From the NCBI GenBank assembly GCA_022825665.1, contig JAJDWI010000086.1, positions 838 to 64,837 on the forward strand: a DNA stretch of 64,000 nt. The letters run 5' to 3'. Source of the DNA: Candidatus Poribacteria bacterium (GTDB lineage Bacteria; Poribacteria; WGA-4E; WGA-3G). Positions 163-26,002 of this stretch are shown one piece after another. Position 1 is the first letter of the stretch, and every line of letters begins with the position of its first letter. The notes under the pieces were generated by a model. The model made no database searches. It was not told the DNA's origin and saw nothing but the letters and a program-made list of their open reading frames with translations. Both the position numbers and the translations under genes were made by a program.

Positions 163-1247
163 ATATTGTTGTGTTAAGTGATAAAAAGCCAGGGCATTAC
201 AAACAATCATTAGGCATTATCAATAAAATACCAGATTGTCGTATGGAATGGCTTGAGATAGAATTCCAACATAAATGGCGCGATAATCTCCTACGCATAA
301 TCATGTGTGTTTCCGGAGGCATGCCACTGTCAACCTCAATGATTCGTTTCCTCCTTCGCTGGAGTCTTACTACTTCCTCCTACAATGCAGTTTTACAAAT
401 TCAAGGTATGGACTTAGTTCTTTCGACTGGATCATCCGTAGCTGCTGTTAATTTACTTCTCGGTAAACTCCTCAATGCTAAAACAGTCACCTGTCGCAGA
501 CCTTCGCCTATTGGTATCCGACATTTTGACCTTGCAATTCTACCGATGTTATCATGGAATAGTGCCAAAGACCGAAACAATGTATGCAAAACAATTGGTG
601 TCCCAAACCCAATTTCTCCTGACGTCCTAAAGACGAAGCGAGACAATCTGAAACAAGCCCTACACCTGCAAGAACGTCCAGTAATTGGAATCCTTTTAGG
701 AGGAACCGATCAATACGAGACAATAACGGTTGAAGATGCAAAACAGCTGCATACAACATGTGATAAAGTTGCTAAAACCATCAACGCGCAGATATTACTA
801 ACGACATCTCGAAGAACACCTACAGACGTTTCTAATTACTTAAAATCAAAGTTCACAAATGCGGATTGGTGTCCTTTGTTCATTGATCCTGATACACCTT
901 CAGATCTTGATGATCCGTATCAAACCATTCTATCAGCAAGTGATTTACTTATCGTAACAGCAGACAGTTTTTCAATGGTATGTGAAGCAGCATCCAGTGG
1001 TTGCAAGGTGATAGTTCTATCTCTCACACAGCAAAGACAGAAACAACATAAAAGGTATGAAGTTTATAGTTATATGCAAGAACAGTCGATATTGAATCTC
1101 TGTAGTCTTGAGGAACTTTCGCATGAAATTGATAGAATTTTAGCACTACAACATCAGAACACTATTCTCCGAGATACAGAAACAGCAGTGAGTGCAATCC
1201 AGCATCTATTTGAAAGTAATCATAAAAAAGATAATGGAACAATGTAA
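159..1247 (+). CDS. ELM1/GtrOC1-family (DUF1022) putative glycosyltransferase
   Basis: N-terminal SDKKPGHxxQSxG, plus TTSRRTP and VTADSxSMVCEA motifs typical of the family. Confidence 0.85.
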   Translation: MNIVVLSDKKPGHYKQSLGIINKIPDCRMEWLEIEFQHKWRDNLLRIIMCVSGGMPLSTSMIRFLLRWSLTTSSYNAVLQIQGMDLVLSTGSSVAAVNLLLGKLLNAKTVTCRRPSPIGIRHFDLAILPMLSWNSAKDRNNVCKTIGVPNPISPDVLKTKRDNLKQALHLQERPVIGILLGGTDQYETITVEDAKQLHTTCDKVAKTINAQILLTTSRRTPTDVSNYLKSKFTNADWCPLFIDPDTPSDLDDPYQTILSASDLLIVTADSFSMVCEAASSGCKVIVLSLTQQRQKQHKRYEVYSYMQEQSILNLCSLEELSHEIDRILALQHQNTILRDTETAVSAIQHLFESNHKKDNGTM

Positions 1248-3947: not shown

Positions 3948-5933
3948 ATGCCAAATGCCCTATTCGTTTATCCTAAATTCCCACCTTCTTATTGGGGATT
4001 TAAATATGCCTTAGAATTCCTCGGTAAAAAATCTTCAATGCCACCGCTTGGTTTATTGACCATTGCCGGAATGTTCCCAAATAATTACAACTTACAAGTC
4101 GTTGATATGAACATTGAGACGTTAACTGATGAACATCTCGATTGGGCAGATATGGTCCTCACGTCAACAATGATTGTACAGAAAGAATCGTTATATGAGG
4201 TAGTAGAACGATGCAACCGGGCAGCTGTGCCAATAATCGCTGGTGGTCCTCATCCTACATCCTACTATGACAATATCAAAGAAGAGTGTGATGGAACAGT
4301 TGATCATTTCCTATTTGGTGAAGTAGAGGAAATATTTGAAGGTTTTTTGACAGATTTTGAGAGTGGTTCTGCAGATGAAGTTTACAAGGAAACAAGAAAA
4401 CCTGATATAACAAAGACACCTCCACCTCGATATGACCTTATTGATATAAACGCTTACGGTTCAATGGCACTCCAATTCTCTCGCGGATGTCCATTCAACT
4501 GTGAATTTTGTGACATTACTAAGTTATTTGGTCGAGTGCCACGCACAAAAAGCAATGAACAAATGCTCAATGAGTTTGAATTACTGTATAAACTTGGTTG
4601 GAGAGGGGCTATGTTCGTTGTTGATGACAATTTTATAGGAAACAAACGTGATGCAATGCGGTTACTGCCAGCAGTTCAGGAGTGGCAAAAGGAACGCGAC
4701 TTCCCATTTACACTTTATACCGAAGCGAGTGTGAATCTTGTTGAAATACCAGAAATGCTTGATGCAATAACTGCTGCAGGATTTAATATGGTTTTCCTTG
4801 GAATTGAAACGCCAAATGAAGAAGCATTGATCACAACTTCTAAAGGACAAAACACAAGTAAAGAAGAAGAAGCGGGAAGTTACCTGTTAAACGCTATTAG
4901 AAAAATACAGAAAGCAGGTTTGGAGGTGACTGGAGGATTTATTATAGGGCTTGATGGAGACACAGAATTTGACTCTCACATTAATTTTATTCAGAATGCT
5001 GGTATCCCAATGGCTATGGCTGGCTTACTCACAGCGTTGAAAGAAACCGATCTGTGGCACAGACTGAAAATGGAAGACAGATTACTTGTAGAGTCCAGCG
5101 GTAACAATACCGATATGAGTTTGAATTTTGTCCCTGAAATGCCGCGTGAGCAACTTATCCAAGAATACCGACGTGTTATTTCAACACTTTATGACCCCAC
5201 TTTGAAGAACTACTTTGATCGCTGCTATACTTTGCTCAAACACATGCCACGTACCCCACATAATGTTAGACCTATAAAGAAAGAAGAAGTACGTGCATTT
5301 TTGCTATCAATCAAGCGACAACTCTTCTCCAGACAGGGCATAGAATATGCAAAATTTTTAGTTCGGACAATAAAACTTGATAGAAAAATGTTTCCTGAAG
5401 CTGTAAAATTAGCAGTCATGGGTTACCATCTGGAAAAAATGACCCGCCATACAGTTGCAGTAGAGGATTTTAGAACGTTTCTGAGTGGCGAATTGGAGTC
5501 CTATAAAACAAAAATTGCACAATATGTCAATTCTCAAGGTGATAAGATACAGGAATTGCAGAAATACGCATTACAACTTAGCGCAAGAGTTAAGAAAGAA
5601 TACGAAACTATACATATAGATTTTCAATATGCTGCCCACAATGCCCTTGCAAATTTTCATGATTCCTTGTTTGCTGAATATTTAGAGGCAGAATTGACGG
5701 CATTTAAAGAAGCGGTTGCTGCATTTGCAAAAGCACAAAGTGAACGTATTGGCGAGTTACAAGCGTATGTTAGCAATCTCTTAACCCGTGTCCGCGCACA
5801 ACAAACACAACTCCATGCTGATTTCAAACAGAACCTTCAGGAAACCTTTGATGCTTTCACGGAATCCATATCCAATTATTTAGAGCAACGTTTCGGTTCC
5901 ATACCATTTCAGATTGAAGAATTGCAAACCTAA
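3948..5933 (+). CDS. B12-binding radical SAM protein with DUF4070 (HpnP-like architecture) and duplicated C-terminal helical extension
   Basis: PPLGLLTIA and GGPHPT cobalamin-binding domain, SRGCPFNCEFC motif, DDNFIG. Probable start is ATG 3948. Confidence 0.9.
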   Translation: MPNALFVYPKFPPSYWGFKYALEFLGKKSSMPPLGLLTIAGMFPNNYNLQVVDMNIETLTDEHLDWADMVLTSTMIVQKESLYEVVERCNRAAVPIIAGGPHPTSYYDNIKEECDGTVDHFLFGEVEEIFEGFLTDFESGSADEVYKETRKPDITKTPPPRYDLIDINAYGSMALQFSRGCPFNCEFCDITKLFGRVPRTKSNEQMLNEFELLYKLGWRGAMFVVDDNFIGNKRDAMRLLPAVQEWQKERDFPFTLYTEASVNLVEIPEMLDAITAAGFNMVFLGIETPNEEALITTSKGQNTSKEEEAGSYLLNAIRKIQKAGLEVTGGFIIGLDGDTEFDSHINFIQNAGIPMAMAGLLTALKETDLWHRLKMEDRLLVESSGNNTDMSLNFVPEMPREQLIQEYRRVISTLYDPTLKNYFDRCYTLLKHMPRTPHNVRPIKKEEVRAFLLSIKRQLFSRQGIEYAKFLVRTIKLDRKMFPEAVKLAVMGYHLEKMTRHTVAVEDFRTFLSGELESYKTKIAQYVNSQGDKIQELQKYALQLSARVKKEYETIHIDFQYAAHNALANFHDSLFAEYLEAELTAFKEAVAAFAKAQSERIGELQAYVSNLLTRVRAQQTQLHADFKQNLQETFDAFTESISNYLEQRFGSIPFQIEELQT

Positions 5934-23331: not shown

Positions 23332-23481
23332 TTAAAACTTTTTACTTCTGAGTTCTCCCCACAAAACTAACTTTTTCCCAACAGCGTTTACACTAAGAAC
23401 TTCTTCAACAGAGGATTGGAAACCCATCTATTTTGATGGACTGTTCGGTTTAAGATTGTAATCATGTTTGTGAATATTTAC
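23332..23481 (-). pseudogene. C-terminal remnant of the third beta-helix paralog
   Basis: Translates VNIHKHDYNLKPNSPSK*MGFQSSVEEVLSVNAVGKKLVLWGELRSKKF*, colinear with the C-termini of the two intact paralogs. In-frame TAG at 23428-23430. Confidence 0.85.
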
Positions 23482-23560
23482 CAAACGTTGCGGTGTGAAA
23501 GCCCAATGCTTTAGATTTGGGATGAAACACCGCCAAACGTCTCCTTCGTTAAAAATAACC

Positions 23561-23589
23561 TTGATTTTATCCAAGAAATGTGGTATCCT
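23561..23589 (+). promoter_or_regulatory. Promoter inside the IS200/IS605 element
   Basis: TTGATT-17-TATCCT with extended -10 TGG. Predicted start ~23596 coincides with the first stem of the structured region. Confidence 0.55.
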
Positions 23590-23595
23590 ATTTAT

Positions 23596-24022
23596 ACCAA
23601 CTGGATAGGAGAGCAATCATTCACTACCTTGTGAATGTCCTATCCAATCCGATTGCTCGGACAGAGTTGGTGTTGGAAAAACCGACAATACCATATTCGG
23701 ACTATACTTATGAGGTTATGATCCTCACTTCGTTTATGATGAGTTCTGAAATCGCATCATAGAGATCGTGTAGGTGTTCCCTACCCGACCGCGATAGAAA
23801 CAGAACGCCAAGAAAAAGTATCTGGGTCGCGCATTTGGGGAATATACGGACCCCGTTAGTCGTGCCTTGGCGGGCACCCCCGCAGTTGCTGCAACGGTCA
23901 ACTCGGCTTAAAACTGAGTGAGTATGCTATAAGCATATAAAAGATGCCCACATTTTCAAAATACGCAAGGCGTGAGAAGATGACCTAAGGAACCCCAATC
24001 CTTTAGGTTTGGGAGCCGTCAG
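23596..24022 (+). ncRNA. Putative structured ncRNA (5' pseudoknot plus omega/reRNA-like 3' part)
   Basis: Dense perfect stems, including crossing pairs GGATAGGA/TCCTATCC and GAGCAATC/GATTGCTC. Ends at the IS right-end hairpin. Confidence 0.5.
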
Positions 24023-24587
24023 TATCTCCATACAGGTAAACACCTCCTCCAATATCAGAACCTGCACGGTTGCCCTTTATTATACAGGATGATAGATATA
24101 AATTAGAATCAATACAATATATTCCACCCCCGGTTCCACTGGAATCAAAAAAATCTCCTGCGCTGTTTTCAGTTATGACACAGTTTCTAATTGTTGGTGA
24201 GGAATTGTTACAATATATACCAGCCCCATTTAGATGTAATCCATTTGTTATAGTGAATCCATCTAATACCGAGTTGTTGGTTTCTCTGCTGTGGAATATG
24301 AATCCTCTTGTTTTTTCCTTTCTTTTACAATCAATTATTGTCACCTCTGGACCATTTTGAGACTTAAGTGTTATCTGTTTCCCTTTGAAATCAATGTTTA
24401 CATTTCCTATACCTTTGTAAACACCATCAGCAACTAATACAGTATCACCATCTATTGCTGTATTAATACCTGCTTGTATTGTAGGATGTTCAGCAGGCAC
24501 ACGAATCACTGCTGCAAATGTATGTACATTGGCGAAAAGTAATAATAGAATAATCATTATATTGACAATAACCCTACTAAATTTCAT
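24023..24587 (-). pseudogene. N-terminal part of third beta-helix paralog, truncated by the IS element
   Basis: ATG 24587 after GGAGG. VPAEHPTIQAGI...GDTVLVADG and GGGIYC repeats. Homology stops at the IS right end. Confidence 0.88.
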
Positions 24588-24589
24588 GA

Positions 24590-26002
24590 TTACCTCCATC
24601 TATTATGTCTATGGTCCTTTCGTTTTATATCTGCCCATCTTAACAACCGTTTACCAACAGGTACAACACTTAGGGCACCTCCAACCGAAGTTTGTGGTCC
24701 CATACCTAATACTGGACTATCTCCCCTAAGCCTATAGTCTCCTCGGTCAGGATTTCTAAAAAGTGGATCCATATCTATGTTGTCTTCATAAACAAACAAA
24801 TTTCCATCAGGTTCTTGTCCAATATGATCGAGTCCATCCCTAATAACGTTTGATTTAAATACTATCCCTCTACCAGCAACAAATACCTCAGGATTTCTGT
24901 CATCCGAATTATTACCCCAGACAATTGAATTAGTTAACTTAAATGAGGTTAAACTAAAAACATATAAACCACCACCTCTCTCGCTTGCAGTATTCCGCGT
25001 GATAGTGCAATTACTAATTTCTGCATATCCATGCTTAGACTCACCGACTTCAATTCCACCACCCCACCTTGTGGCTATGTTTTCAGCTATAATACAGTTA
25101 GAAACTTCGATAATTCCTGATGGACTACAGTAAATTCCTCCACCGTTTTTTGCTGTGTTTTGTCTGATGTATGAATTGTCGATCTTTATTCTGGAATACT
25201 CACTTGCTTCCAAACCACCCCCAGTGTTTTGGGCAATTTCACAATTTGTAATGAATGTGGTACCTGCAAAAAATGAACATACAACACCGCGTAAACTATT
25301 ATGTAATATCTTAGAATCTTTGATTTCACAACTGACGAAATCCAGTATATGAACGCCACTGCCAGTATTCTCTGAAATAATACAATTGATTAGTTGCGGT
25401 TGAAAATACGTGTCTCTAAATCCACCATCAATTTCATTACTTCCATCAAAGTATATTCCACCACCATACGTGTATTCTGCAATATTGTTTGATATTGTAG
25501 AATCAATTATTATTGCTTCAGAATTGAAACAATATATTCCACCACCCCGTCCTGTACCACTTTCGTCCCTAAGTGCTTTGTTCCATGAAATGACACAATT
25601 CTTAATTGTTGGAGAAGCATTATTGCAGTAAATCCCACCACCATTTAAATCTCTACCATTTTTAATAGTAAATCCATCTAATACTGATGTATGTGTTTCT
25701 TCATTTTGAAAGGTAAAACCACGCGTATTTGGGGTCCACAAACAGTTGATAATTGTCCCTTCAGGTCCATTCTTGGACTTAACTATAATCTGTTTTCCCT
25801 TAAAGTCTATGTTGACATTACCGTCACCTTTGTATACTCCATTAGCAACTAAAACCGTATCCCCGTTTTGTGCAGAGTCAATACCCGCTTGAATTGTTGG
25901 TTGATCGGCAGGTACATTAATTGTTACAGCATAGGTTGAGATATTCACACAAAGCAAAATTATATAGATAAAGATGTGGACACAAAATCTATTAATGTTC
26001 AT
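24590..26002 (-). CDS. Secreted right-handed parallel beta-helix (pectin lyase-like/PMP-repeat) protein
   Basis: Signal peptide, VPADQPTIQAGID...GDTVLV, GGGI-x-C repeats, DPLF...DYRL, C-terminal LSVVPVGKRLLRWADIK. Confidence 0.9.
   Translation of the reverse strand: MNINRFCVHIFIYIILLCVNISTYAVTINVPADQPTIQAGIDSAQNGDTVLVANGVYKGDGNVNIDFKGKQIIVKSKNGPEGTIINCLWTPNTRGFTFQNEETHTSVLDGFTIKNGRDLNGGGIYCNNASPTIKNCVISWNKALRDESGTGRGGGIYCFNSEAIIIDSTISNNIAEYTYGGGIYFDGSNEIDGGFRDTYFQPQLINCIISENTGSGVHILDFVSCEIKDSKILHNSLRGVVCSFFAGTTFITNCEIAQNTGGGLEASEYSRIKIDNSYIRQNTAKNGGGIYCSPSGIIEVSNCIIAENIATRWGGGIEVGESKHGYAEISNCTITRNTASERGGGLYVFSLTSFKLTNSIVWGNNSDDRNPEVFVAGRGIVFKSNVIRDGLDHIGQEPDGNLFVYEDNIDMDPLFRNPDRGDYRLRGDSPVLGMGPQTSVGGALSVVPVGKRLLRWADIKRKDHRHNRWR

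What the first reader, a model, noticed from the sequence alone, without database searches (positions are those of the whole stretch)
23482..24022. Protein-free IS200/IS605 element that looks like a self-contained guide-RNA cassette
Seen: two near-identical subterminal hairpins, AAAG before the left one with TTAC at the left flank, and GAAC before the right one with TCAG at the right end. No TSD and no intact ORF. Established: in IS608 the guide AAAG selects TTAC and GAAT selects TCAA, so GAAC predicts TCAG, which is what is present. TnpB omega-RNAs come from the right end and take their guide from flanking DNA. Also seen: an internal promoter (23561-23589), hairpins along almost the whole length, and a weak frameshifted resemblance to a TnpB tail (HRDRVG...KKYLG) near 23758-23910. 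Inference: a mobilisable, transcribed RNA-only element that could supply guides in trans to TnpB or a derivative. Here the guide would start at 24023 (TATCTCCATACAGG...), antisense to the beta-helix gene family.
Basis: partly seen in the sequence, partly recalled or inferred. Interest (0 to 1): 0.85.

Follow-up and report, generated by a model that had tools for sequence, protein, structure and literature searches.

The report
Protein-free transposon carrying a guide-RNA gene
This 541-base jumping element in a sponge-symbiont (Poribacteria) genome has lost its protein gene but kept its ends, its promoter and a folded RNA derived from the guide RNA of a TnpB nuclease, so it probably borrows both its transposase and its nuclease from other elements; the kind is already known.

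Summary
Window 23482-24022 is a multi-copy, protein-free IS200/IS605-type element (a PATE) in a Candidatus Poribacteria genome. It sits right after TTAC, has no target duplication, and has two subterminal hairpins. The base before the right hairpin pairs with the element's last base in 50 of 53 right ends in this genome.

Copies of 530-585 bp occur in at least 8 genomes of the genus. They keep a promoter (TTGA.. -35, TGTGGTA extended -10) and a folded RNA of about 427 nt: 30 of 84 predicted pairs show compensatory changes (0 of 500 shuffles reach this).

I found the parent. It is a tnpB-only element ("F-type") with the same left end and TTAC target in this genome. The short element's 3' half is homologous, at DNA-profile level, to the 3' end of F-type tnpB plus right end (E 3e-15 to 4e-11), which is where TnpB guide RNAs are encoded.

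Most likely it makes a guide RNA used in trans by F-type TnpB (about 0.6). Transcript ends, binding and cleavage are untested. Meers et al. 2023 already state that PATEs often encode such RNAs, so this is a new member of a known kind. It also has an added 5' pseudoknot domain.

The parts
23478..23481 (+). TTAC target tetranucleotide. It would also be the transposon-adjacent motif (TAM) for TnpB. It lies just 5' of the element.
   Evidence: In one search, 16 of 17 left ends with the AAAG-type guide follow TTAC.
23482..24022 (+). The whole 541-bp protein-free IS200/IS605-type element (a PATE).
   Evidence: Ends fixed by 12 right-end and 17 left-end junctions. Other copies: C60 (96%), C45+C9 (96-98%), C170 (85%), C79 (73%).
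23482..23534 (+). Left end. It holds an outer inverted repeat (GCGGTGT / ACACCGC), the DNA guide AAAG (23498-23501) and the hairpin at 23502-21.
   Evidence: AAAG goes with TTAC and AAAA with TTAT across subfamilies.
23561..23589 (+). Promoter shared with the F-type tnpB element: -35 TTGATT (23561-66), TG (23581-82), -10 TATCCT (23584-89). The predicted start is near 23596.
   Evidence: Invariant bases T80, T81, A83 and T98, T100, G101, G102, T103, A104 of the element in 32 copies. Left-end and promoter homology to F-type elements, E 1e-12 to 2e-22. Not listed by the consensus scan. The start site is inferred.
23596..23747 (+). 5' RNA domain with no counterpart found in the parent. It has stem GGATAGG (23603-09) / CCTATCC (23639-45) enclosing a hairpin. 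It also has a pseudoknot GAGCAATC (23611-18) / GATTGCTC (23651-58), followed by further hairpins.
   Evidence: Helices 5-8 of A1 carry compensatory changes. The pseudoknot strands change together in G003 copies and in the second ~538-bp family (read by eye). No hit to F-type elements.
23748..24022 (+). Domain homologous to the 3' end of F-type tnpB plus right end, that is, the omega-RNA scaffold region. It includes the HRDRVG remnant (23758-23778) and AAGTATCTGGG (23816-23826). It carries three insertions relative to the parent.
   Evidence: nhmmer E 3e-15 to 4e-11 to five F-type elements and E 7e-11 to 4e-7 to four contig starts of this genome. Alignment A2. Shared helices are 92.8% paired, with 21 of 34 pairs compensatory.
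23990..24022 (+). Right end: DNA guide GAAC (23990-93), hairpin (23994-24013), tail AGCCGTCAG with cleavage site TCAG (24019-22).
   Evidence: The guide's 4th base is complementary to the last base in 50 of 53 right ends and in 29 of 32 family copies (two rows re-read by eye).
24023..24042 (+). Predicted guide segment of the RNA (flanking DNA, about 16-20 nt). It is antisense to the host gene fragment.
   Evidence: Inferred from TnpB omega-RNA topology. No other match with 2 or fewer mismatches in the genome.
24023..24599 (-). 5' fragment of a beta-helix protein gene (aa 1-194 of a ~470-aa paralogue family). Its reading frame runs into the element.
   Evidence: 57% identity to paralogue aa 1-190.
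23341..23478 (-). 3' remnant of the same host gene (matches paralogue aa 417-462). About 0.68 kb of the gene is missing where the element lies.
   Evidence: tblastn E 2e-9. One RNA-library contig carries 692 other letters between the same two flanks.

Best explanation
The stretch is a non-autonomous IS200/IS605-family element (a PATE) in a Candidatus Poribacteria genome. It descends from a tnpB-only element, here called F-type.

What it keeps from the parent:
- The left end with its TTAC-selecting DNA guide.
- The tnpB promoter.
- The last ~270 nt of the tnpB region, where the TnpB guide (omega) RNA scaffold is encoded.
- A right end whose GAAC guide selects the TCAG cleavage site.

The tnpB reading frame is gone. 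In its place is a ~150-nt folded 5' domain with a pseudoknot.

Proposed working:
- The promoter drives a ~427-nt RNA that runs through the right end into flanking DNA.
- F-type TnpB, made by other copies, binds the scaffold and uses the flank as a guide.
- When a Y1 TnpA supplied in trans excises the element, the rejoined site (TTAC plus guide match) is cut and repaired from a sister copy. The element is thereby retained.

Shown: element identity, ends, copy number, parentage, conserved promoter, conserved RNA structure.
Inferred: transcription start and read-through, TnpB loading, cleavage, and which TnpA mobilises it.
For: Ends and mobility signature.

Family: 17 of 41 related genomes match. 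Near full-length copies occur in G000, G003, G006, G007, G019, G020, G023, and a 260-nt 3' match in G010. All 40 exact hits of a 5'-domain pattern among about 185,000 species genomes lie in Poribacteria records.

Selected RNA structure:
- A1: 97.2% of cells paired against 90.0% shuffled; 30 of 84 pairs compensatory against 18.4 +/- 1.9; 0 of 500 shuffles reach this; slid controls give 4-10.
- G-U 213 against A-C 25 on the + strand.

Promoter bases are invariant.

Parentage:
- The left end is 95% identical over the first 56 nt to the TTAC-flanked left ends on C71 and C72, which continue into a TnpB N-terminus.
- In G020 the F-type left end reads the same as that of the short copies.
- Target tetranucleotides agree between F-type and short copies in 3 of 3 genomes where both were read (G000 TTAC; G020 and G023 TTAT).

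Scaffold homology.
- Blocks that cannot be kept by coding in the short family are invariant in both groups: AAGTATC.GGG, TAG..G, TGGC.
- F-type protein is a TnpB: PF07282 2e-21, PF01385 2e-12.

Same genome, same logic: a 311-315-nt family joins left end, promoter, TnpB tail and right end of another TnpB element.

RNA libraries: depth 2,000-34,000 on the element against 110 on the flanks.

A TnpA element in G003 has a homologous left end (E 2.5e-6).

In print: PATEs 'often encode' omega-RNAs to be used in trans (PMC10055086, passages read).
Against: - The right-end tail differs from the parent: AGCCGTCAG against AGTATGTCAA in all TnpB elements read.
- Three insertions and the extra 5' domain might prevent TnpB binding.
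- Protein-level searches stay insignificant: best E 0.12 against this genome's TnpBs and 0.012, at an unrelated position, against F-type TnpB. The homology is seen only with DNA profiles and by eye.
- The F-type tnpB interior is not assembled in this genome, so an intact partner here is not shown.
- G010 has short-family pieces but no F-type hit. G007 has only a weak partial hit.
- The only IS605-type TnpA in this genome (C159) has different hairpins and a TCAC target. The complete genome G020 showed only a REP-type TnpA.
- RNA evidence is from contigs, which give no ends, strand or level. X1 had no contig over 23708-23809.
- No Rfam family matches.
Confidence: 0.6

Rival explanations
1. It is a purely selfish miniature element whose RNA does nothing. 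The fold is only what was inherited from the parent's guide-RNA region, and the promoter is a leftover.
For: Deletion derivatives of TnpB elements arise readily in this genome: the 311-315-nt family and a 562-nt copy with fused TnpB N- and C-terminal remnants. The partner nuclease is not shown to be intact here.
Against: Copies at only 68-78% identity keep length (530-585 bp), promoter bases and helices through compensatory changes. A 5' domain absent from the parent is itself conserved and covaries. Single-stranded blocks are invariant in coding and non-coding lineages alike.
Confidence: 0.13
2. It is a mobile promoter or antisense-RNA source that matters through its effect on neighbouring host genes. 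Earlier agents proposed this for a 0.8-kb promoter-carrying repeat of the same genome.
For: There is a conserved outward-facing promoter and no terminator before the right end. In this copy the read-through would be antisense to a gene fragment.
Against: The nearest downstream gene is co-directional in only 4 of 11 right flanks. This idea does not explain about 400 nt of conserved structure or the scaffold homology.
Confidence: 0.08
3. The RNA binds TnpB but acts as a decoy or competitor, or serves a different effector, rather than guiding retention of its own element.
For: The scaffold is altered by insertions and a new 5' domain, and the right-end tail next to the guide differs from the parent's. 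RNA-library depth is very high.
Against: IsrB/IscB-type partners are excluded by distribution: PF14239 gives 0 hits in G000 and in the complete G020, both rich in the element. The guide-flank topology and the matching TTAC or TTAT targets of parent and derivative fit ordinary guide use.
Confidence: 0.12

Closest known systems
PATE-like elements of Geobacillus stearothermophilus IS200/IS605 families (Meers et al. 2023; preprint PMC10055086, passages read)
   Same: They lack protein genes and share left and right ends with tnpB-bearing elements of the same genome. The paper states that such elements 'often encode' omega-RNAs that TnpB from other elements would have to use in trans, and that they are mobilised by TnpA in trans.
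   Different: This is a different phylum and an unrelated sequence. Here the RNA is about 427 nt with an added 5' pseudoknot domain and three insertions. The family is kept across a genus. The Geobacillus PATE figure and supplements were not visible to me, so finer likeness cannot be judged.
PATEs of Haloquadratum walsbyi (Dyall-Smith et al. 2011, PMC3119063; passages read)
   Same: They match the definition: no terminal inverted repeats, near-terminal palindromes like those of IS605-type elements, no target duplication, too short for a transposase. Some retain the C-terminal coding remnant of tnpB.
   Different: Those are archaeal. No promoter or RNA function was analysed there.
IS608 of Helicobacter pylori (TnpA guide rule; tetranucleotides recalled, general principle passages)
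   Same: A tetranucleotide 5' of each hairpin selects the target and cleavage site. Here AAAG goes with TTAC. The right-end guides GAAC, GAAA, GAAG and GAAT go with TCAG, TCAT, TCAC and TCAA.
   Different: IS608 carries tnpA and tnpB. This element carries neither.
TnpB omega-RNA / reRNA (ISDra2 type; recalled, abstract of PMC10097598 seen in listing)
   Same: The RNA is encoded over the 3' end of tnpB and the right end, with the guide taken from the flank 3' of the right end.
   Different: Here the scaffold stands without tnpB, has its own promoter, and is about twice the usual length. No Rfam model covers it or its parent.
Promoter-bearing MITEs (for example Neisseria Correia elements; named in earlier findings e1-4609288 and e1-4609289)
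   Same: Short, multi-copy and promoter-carrying.
   Different: Those have inverted repeats and target duplications. This element has IS605-type hairpin ends and a guide-RNA-derived cargo.

Membership tests
IS200/IS605-family non-autonomous element (PATE) | Subterminal hairpins at both ends, no terminal inverted repeats | tested here: met
   Hairpins at 23502-21 and 23994-24013, 88% alike over 24 nt. 45 such hairpins occur genome-wide.
IS200/IS605-family non-autonomous element (PATE) | Insertion 3' of a fixed tetranucleotide, with no target duplication | tested here: met
   TTAC precedes 16 of 17 left ends with the AAAG-type guide. TTAT precedes 11 of 12 with the AAAA-type guide. The flanks are unrelated.
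IS200/IS605-family non-autonomous element (PATE) | DNA guide 5' of each hairpin matches the target or cleavage site | tested here: met
   50 of 53 right ends in the genome. 27 of 32 family copies by script; 29 of 32 after re-reading the two G000 rows, where the script set the hairpin one base early.
IS200/IS605-family non-autonomous element (PATE) | Too short to encode a transposase; ends shared with protein-coding elements | tested here: met
   ORFs of 62 aa or less. The left end and promoter are shared with F-type tnpB elements.
IS200/IS605-family non-autonomous element (PATE) | Mobilised by a Y1 TnpA in trans | not testable with these tools
   Copies 96-98% alike at different loci and a strain contig without the element at this site suggest recent movement. 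The candidate TnpA in this genome (C159) has other hairpins. A G003 TnpA element has a homologous left end.
TnpB omega-RNA (guide RNA of IS605/IS1341-type tnpB) | Scaffold encoded by the tnpB 3' end plus right end | tested here: met
   DNA-profile homology to F-type tnpB 3' ends, E 3e-15 to 4e-11. Shared helices have 21 of 34 compensatory pairs.
TnpB omega-RNA (guide RNA of IS605/IS1341-type tnpB) | Transcript crosses the right end and carries about 16-20 nt of flank as guide | tested here: inconclusive
   A conserved promoter faces the right end and there is no terminator before it. RNA-library contigs cover the element but cannot show ends or strand.
TnpB omega-RNA (guide RNA of IS605/IS1341-type tnpB) | Bound by TnpB and directs TAM-dependent DNA cleavage | not testable with these tools
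   No complex prediction or assay was run. F-type TnpB has both Pfam domains.
Any curated Rfam RNA family (including HEARO/IscB RNA, group I introns, IS605-orfB motifs) | Score at or above the family's gathering threshold | tested here: not met
   No hit at gathering score or at E<=1. Only chance-level hits at E<=10. The true F-type tnpB 3' ends also give none.
IscB/IsrB guide RNA | An IscB/IsrB protein is present wherever the RNA is kept | tested here: not met
   PF14239 gives 0 hits in G000 and in G020, both with many copies, against 28 hits in G003.

The most novel reading that the evidence does not exclude
The family may be an RNA-only lineage that parasitises two proteins at once: TnpA for movement and F-type TnpB for retention. 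On this reading it has evolved on its own for long enough to add a 5' pseudoknot domain and three scaffold expansions. These could let it out-compete the parent's own guide RNA for TnpB, or stabilise the RNA. It would be a natural 'guide-RNA hyperparasite' kept across a bacterial genus.
Probability: 0.3. Interest if true: 0.7.

Novelty: new member of a known kind. Interest (0 to 1): 0.45.

Why it matters
Protein-free IS605 derivatives that carry a guide RNA have been mentioned in print but, in the searches I ran, not dissected or tested.

This family offers a clean natural case:
- The parent and the derivative sit in the same genomes.
- Their TTAC or TTAT targets match.
- The promoter is conserved.
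- A covariation-supported RNA shows which scaffold parts survive once coding constraint is lifted, and which parts were added.

That makes two things directly testable: trans use of guide RNAs by TnpB, and the minimal or extended scaffold requirements of this TnpB clade. It also explains many contig breaks in Poribacteria assemblies.

Tried and rejected
- Rfam: no family. The weak HgcC hits (E 1.2 and 7.7, 14-17 bits against a gathering score of 50) are chance-level hairpin matches.
- blastx of the element against all ORFs of the genome, its TnpBs and F-type TnpB: nothing significant. The remnant is too frameshifted for protein tools.
- IsrB/IscB as partner: rejected by distribution. One G003 copy lies beside an IsrB element, right end to right end. 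With 28 x 27 possible pairs in 6 Mb I treat that as chance.
- IS607 TnpB on C80 and the IS605 on C159: different ends.
- Mobile-promoter idea: only 4 of 11 downstream genes are co-directional.
- Second targets for the predicted guide: none with 2 or fewer mismatches in 20 nt.
- Strand by alifold energy: + gives -171.5 and - gives -160.5, which is not decisive alone.
- RNA run X2 (share 0.10, depth under 9) and the X1 gap over 23708-23809 say nothing either way.
- Contig walking from repeat ends found almost no continuations, so the F-type interior could not be rebuilt.
- No covariance model was built. No structure or complex prediction was run.

Full report
**What is there**

TTAC lies at 23478-81. 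A left hairpin at 23502-21 is preceded by AAAG. A near-identical right hairpin at 23994-24013 is preceded by GAAC. The element ends in TCAG at 24022. The two hairpin blocks are 88% identical over 24 nt. There is no target duplication. ORFs inside reach only 46-62 aa.

**Is it more than chance?**

The window is contig C81 of a 170-contig draft. BLAST finds 45 matches in the genome, many at contig ends. Contigs overlap by 141 nt and break in this repeat.

- Of 17 left ends with the AAAG-type guide, 16 follow TTAC. The exception is the inner copy of a tandem left-end duplication on C124.
- Of 12 left ends with an AAAA-type guide, 11 follow TTAT.
- Twelve right ends end ...GCCGTCAG. Eleven have readable, unrelated flanks.
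- Across the whole superfamily in this genome, the fourth base of the right-end guide is complementary to the last base of the element in 50 of 53 right ends: GAAC/TCAG 33, GAAT/TCAA 14, GAAA/TCAT 3.
- In 32 aligned family copies from seven genomes a script scored 27 of 32. It set the hairpin one base too early in the two G000 rows. Read by stem complementarity these are GAAC/...G, giving 29 of 32. G03a, G19d and G19e do not obey.

This is the IS608-type rule. The IS608 tetranucleotides themselves are recalled. The principle is described in the passages of PMC10055086 that I read.

**Organism and spread**

A 25-base pattern from the 5' RNA domain gave 40 exact hits among about 185,000 species genomes. 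All are in records titled Candidatus Poribacteria MAG. Seventeen of 41 related genomes match the element, 14 of 24 in the genus. Near full-length copies occur in G003, G006, G007, G019, G020 and G023. G010 gave a 260-nt match to the 3' half. The fetched full-length copies measure 530-585 bp and are 67-77% identical to the window copy.

**A conserved promoter and a folded RNA**

In 32 copies (alignment A1, mean column identity 69%) the -35 bases TTGA and the extended -10 bases T.TGGTA are invariant or nearly so. In the window copy the hexamers are weak (TTGATT, TATCCT), and the simple scan does not list them.

RNAalifold predicts 84 pairs, 30 of them with compensatory changes. Counting gives:
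- 97.2% of cells paired against 90.0% in shuffles.
- 30 compensatory pairs against 18.4 +/- 1.9, with 0 of 500 shuffles as high.
- 4-10 compensatory pairs when partners are slid.

G-U pairs outnumber A-C 213 to 25 on the + strand. The alifold energy also slightly favours +. There is no convincing terminator before the right end. Transcription from about 23596 would therefore give a ~427-nt RNA that continues into the flank. This is inferred.

**Parentage**

My first protein-level tests were negative. Two observations changed the picture.

First, the genome holds several protein-free size classes. The 311-315-nt family and a 562-nt copy are plain deletion derivatives of TnpB elements. They join left end and promoter to the TnpB tail and right end. 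blastx gives 79-93% identity to the last 14 aa, and the 562-nt copy keeps both N- and C-terminal remnants.

Second, left ends on contig ends C71 and C72 are TTAC-flanked and 95% identical to ours over 56 nt. They run into a TnpB N-terminus. Complete copies of this 'F-type' element occur once or twice in many genomes of the genus: 16 of 41 genomes match. They encode a 395-aa TnpB (PF07282 2e-21, PF01385 2e-12).

The profile of the short family hits the 3' ends of five F-type elements at E 3e-15 to 4e-11, and their left ends at E 1e-12 to 2e-22. The same profile had already hit four contig starts of this genome (C167, C45, C17, C154; E 7e-11 to 4e-7). tblastn shows these are F-type TnpB C-termini.

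Alignment A2 (13 short copies, 9 F-type 3' ends) shows the shared blocks:
- The HRDGVG codons, facing the element's HRDRVG.
- AAGTATCTGGG.
- GTTAGTCG.
- A hairpin with a TGGC loop.
- Two further hairpins.
- The right-end hairpin.

The shared helices are 92.8% paired against 76.5% shuffled. Of 34 pairs, 21 are compensatory (0 of 500 shuffles; slid controls 5-9).

Relative to the parent, the short family has three insertions and a different right-end tail: AGCCGTCAN against AGTATGTCAN. It also has a 5' domain of about 150 nt with no counterpart found in F-type elements.

In G020 the F-type left end reads the same as the short copies' left end. The target tetranucleotide agrees between parent and derivative in the three genomes where I read both.

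**Mechanism**

The best reading is that the element is a PATE that makes a TnpB-type guide RNA from the old tnpB promoter. F-type TnpB, supplied in trans, would use it to cut the rejoined TTAC-plus-flank site after TnpA excision. This is the retention pathway described for IS605-family elements.

Evidence against is real:
- The altered tail and the insertions.
- The unassembled tnpB interior in this genome.
- No or only weak F-type hits in G010 and G007.
- No matching tnpA here. C159 differs, and G020 showed only a REP-type TnpA. A G003 TnpA element does share the left-end architecture.

**Expression**

Two RNA libraries hold parts of the stretch. In the sponge metatranscriptome X1 the k-mer depths are:
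- 110 on both flanks.
- About 1,900-2,200 over the left end (23470-23605).
- 5,800-29,800 over 23606-23673.
- 10,500-34,000 over 23810-24013.

No contig covers 23708-23809. These are summed contig depths from all copies and strains. They cannot show ends, strand or level, so I count them only as weak support.

**Host context**

The element lies between the first 194 codons and the last ~46 codons of a beta-helix gene of a three-paralogue cluster. About 0.68 kb of the gene is missing. One 11.8-kb X1 contig has 692 other letters between exactly these flanks. The simplest reading is a related strain with the intact gene and no element. The copy is therefore polymorphic, and its arrival was accompanied by a deletion on the right-end side. 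This is inferred, as the contig's letters were not available.

**Comparison and novelty**

The element meets every tested PATE criterion (definition read in PMC3119063). Meers et al. state that PATEs often encode omega-RNAs that TnpB must use in trans. The IStron paper shows a PATE with IStron ends. Three searches listed only the first of these as holding both PATE terms and TnpB. A search with 'Poribacteria' listed no paper combining it with IS605 or TnpB among the 15 shown.

So this is a new member of a known kind. It is notable for its clear parent, its genus-wide conservation and its added RNA domain.

Noticed in passing
L176 (G000:C5) 1-311; also G000 C11:15090, C102:25700, C48:99849, C165:21585: A 311-315-nt protein-free family made of left end, promoter, the last codons of a TnpB gene, and the right end AGTATGTCAG of the 1.7-kb TnpB element on C158. 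It is a second, simpler guide-RNA-only derivative in the same genome.
   Followed up: partly
L114 (G000:C95:17247-17784) and L115 (G000:C136:4704-5242): A second ~538-bp protein-free family (68% alike to each other) with TTAT target and right ends AGCGGTCAT / AGCGGTCAA. Its 5' stem-plus-pseudoknot has the same shape as in the 541-bp family but a different sequence. Its parent was not sought.
   Followed up: partly
window 23341-23478 and 24023-24599 (- strand): The host beta-helix gene lacks about 0.68 kb exactly where the element lies. An RNA-library contig from a related strain has 692 other letters between the same flanks. This suggests insertion plus adjacent deletion, and strain polymorphism.
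   Followed up: partly
G003, G019, G007, G015 (for example L191 1263-2306; L185 889-1932): Many IsrB-like genes (RRXRR domain, 340-374 aa) sit in IS605-type elements: 28 matches in G003, 9 in G019, 5 in G007, none in G000 or G020. In L185 one lies right end to right end with a short-family copy.
   Followed up: partly
L174 (G000:C80) 4026-5754, - strand: An IS607-type pair: a 208-aa serine recombinase overlapping a 538-aa TnpB-like protein.
   Followed up: no
G000:C124 about 266-340 (- strand): A tandem duplication of the left end. A second copy of the left end starts right after ...GGGATGAAAC of the first.
   Followed up: no
L032 (G000:C90:61100-61750) and L082 (G020): REP-associated tyrosine transposase (RAYT-like) genes flanked by short palindromic repeats. 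They are unrelated to the element's ends.
   Followed up: no
L177 (G000:C18, element 20348 downward, 562 nt): An internal-deletion derivative that fuses TnpB residues about 11-80 to residues about 359-388 between intact ends.
   Followed up: no
G000 genome-wide: The family profile finds over 80 left-end-like sites. Many of the 170 contigs start or end inside IS605-type repeats, so repeat interiors, including F-type tnpB, are missing from the assembly.
   Followed up: partly
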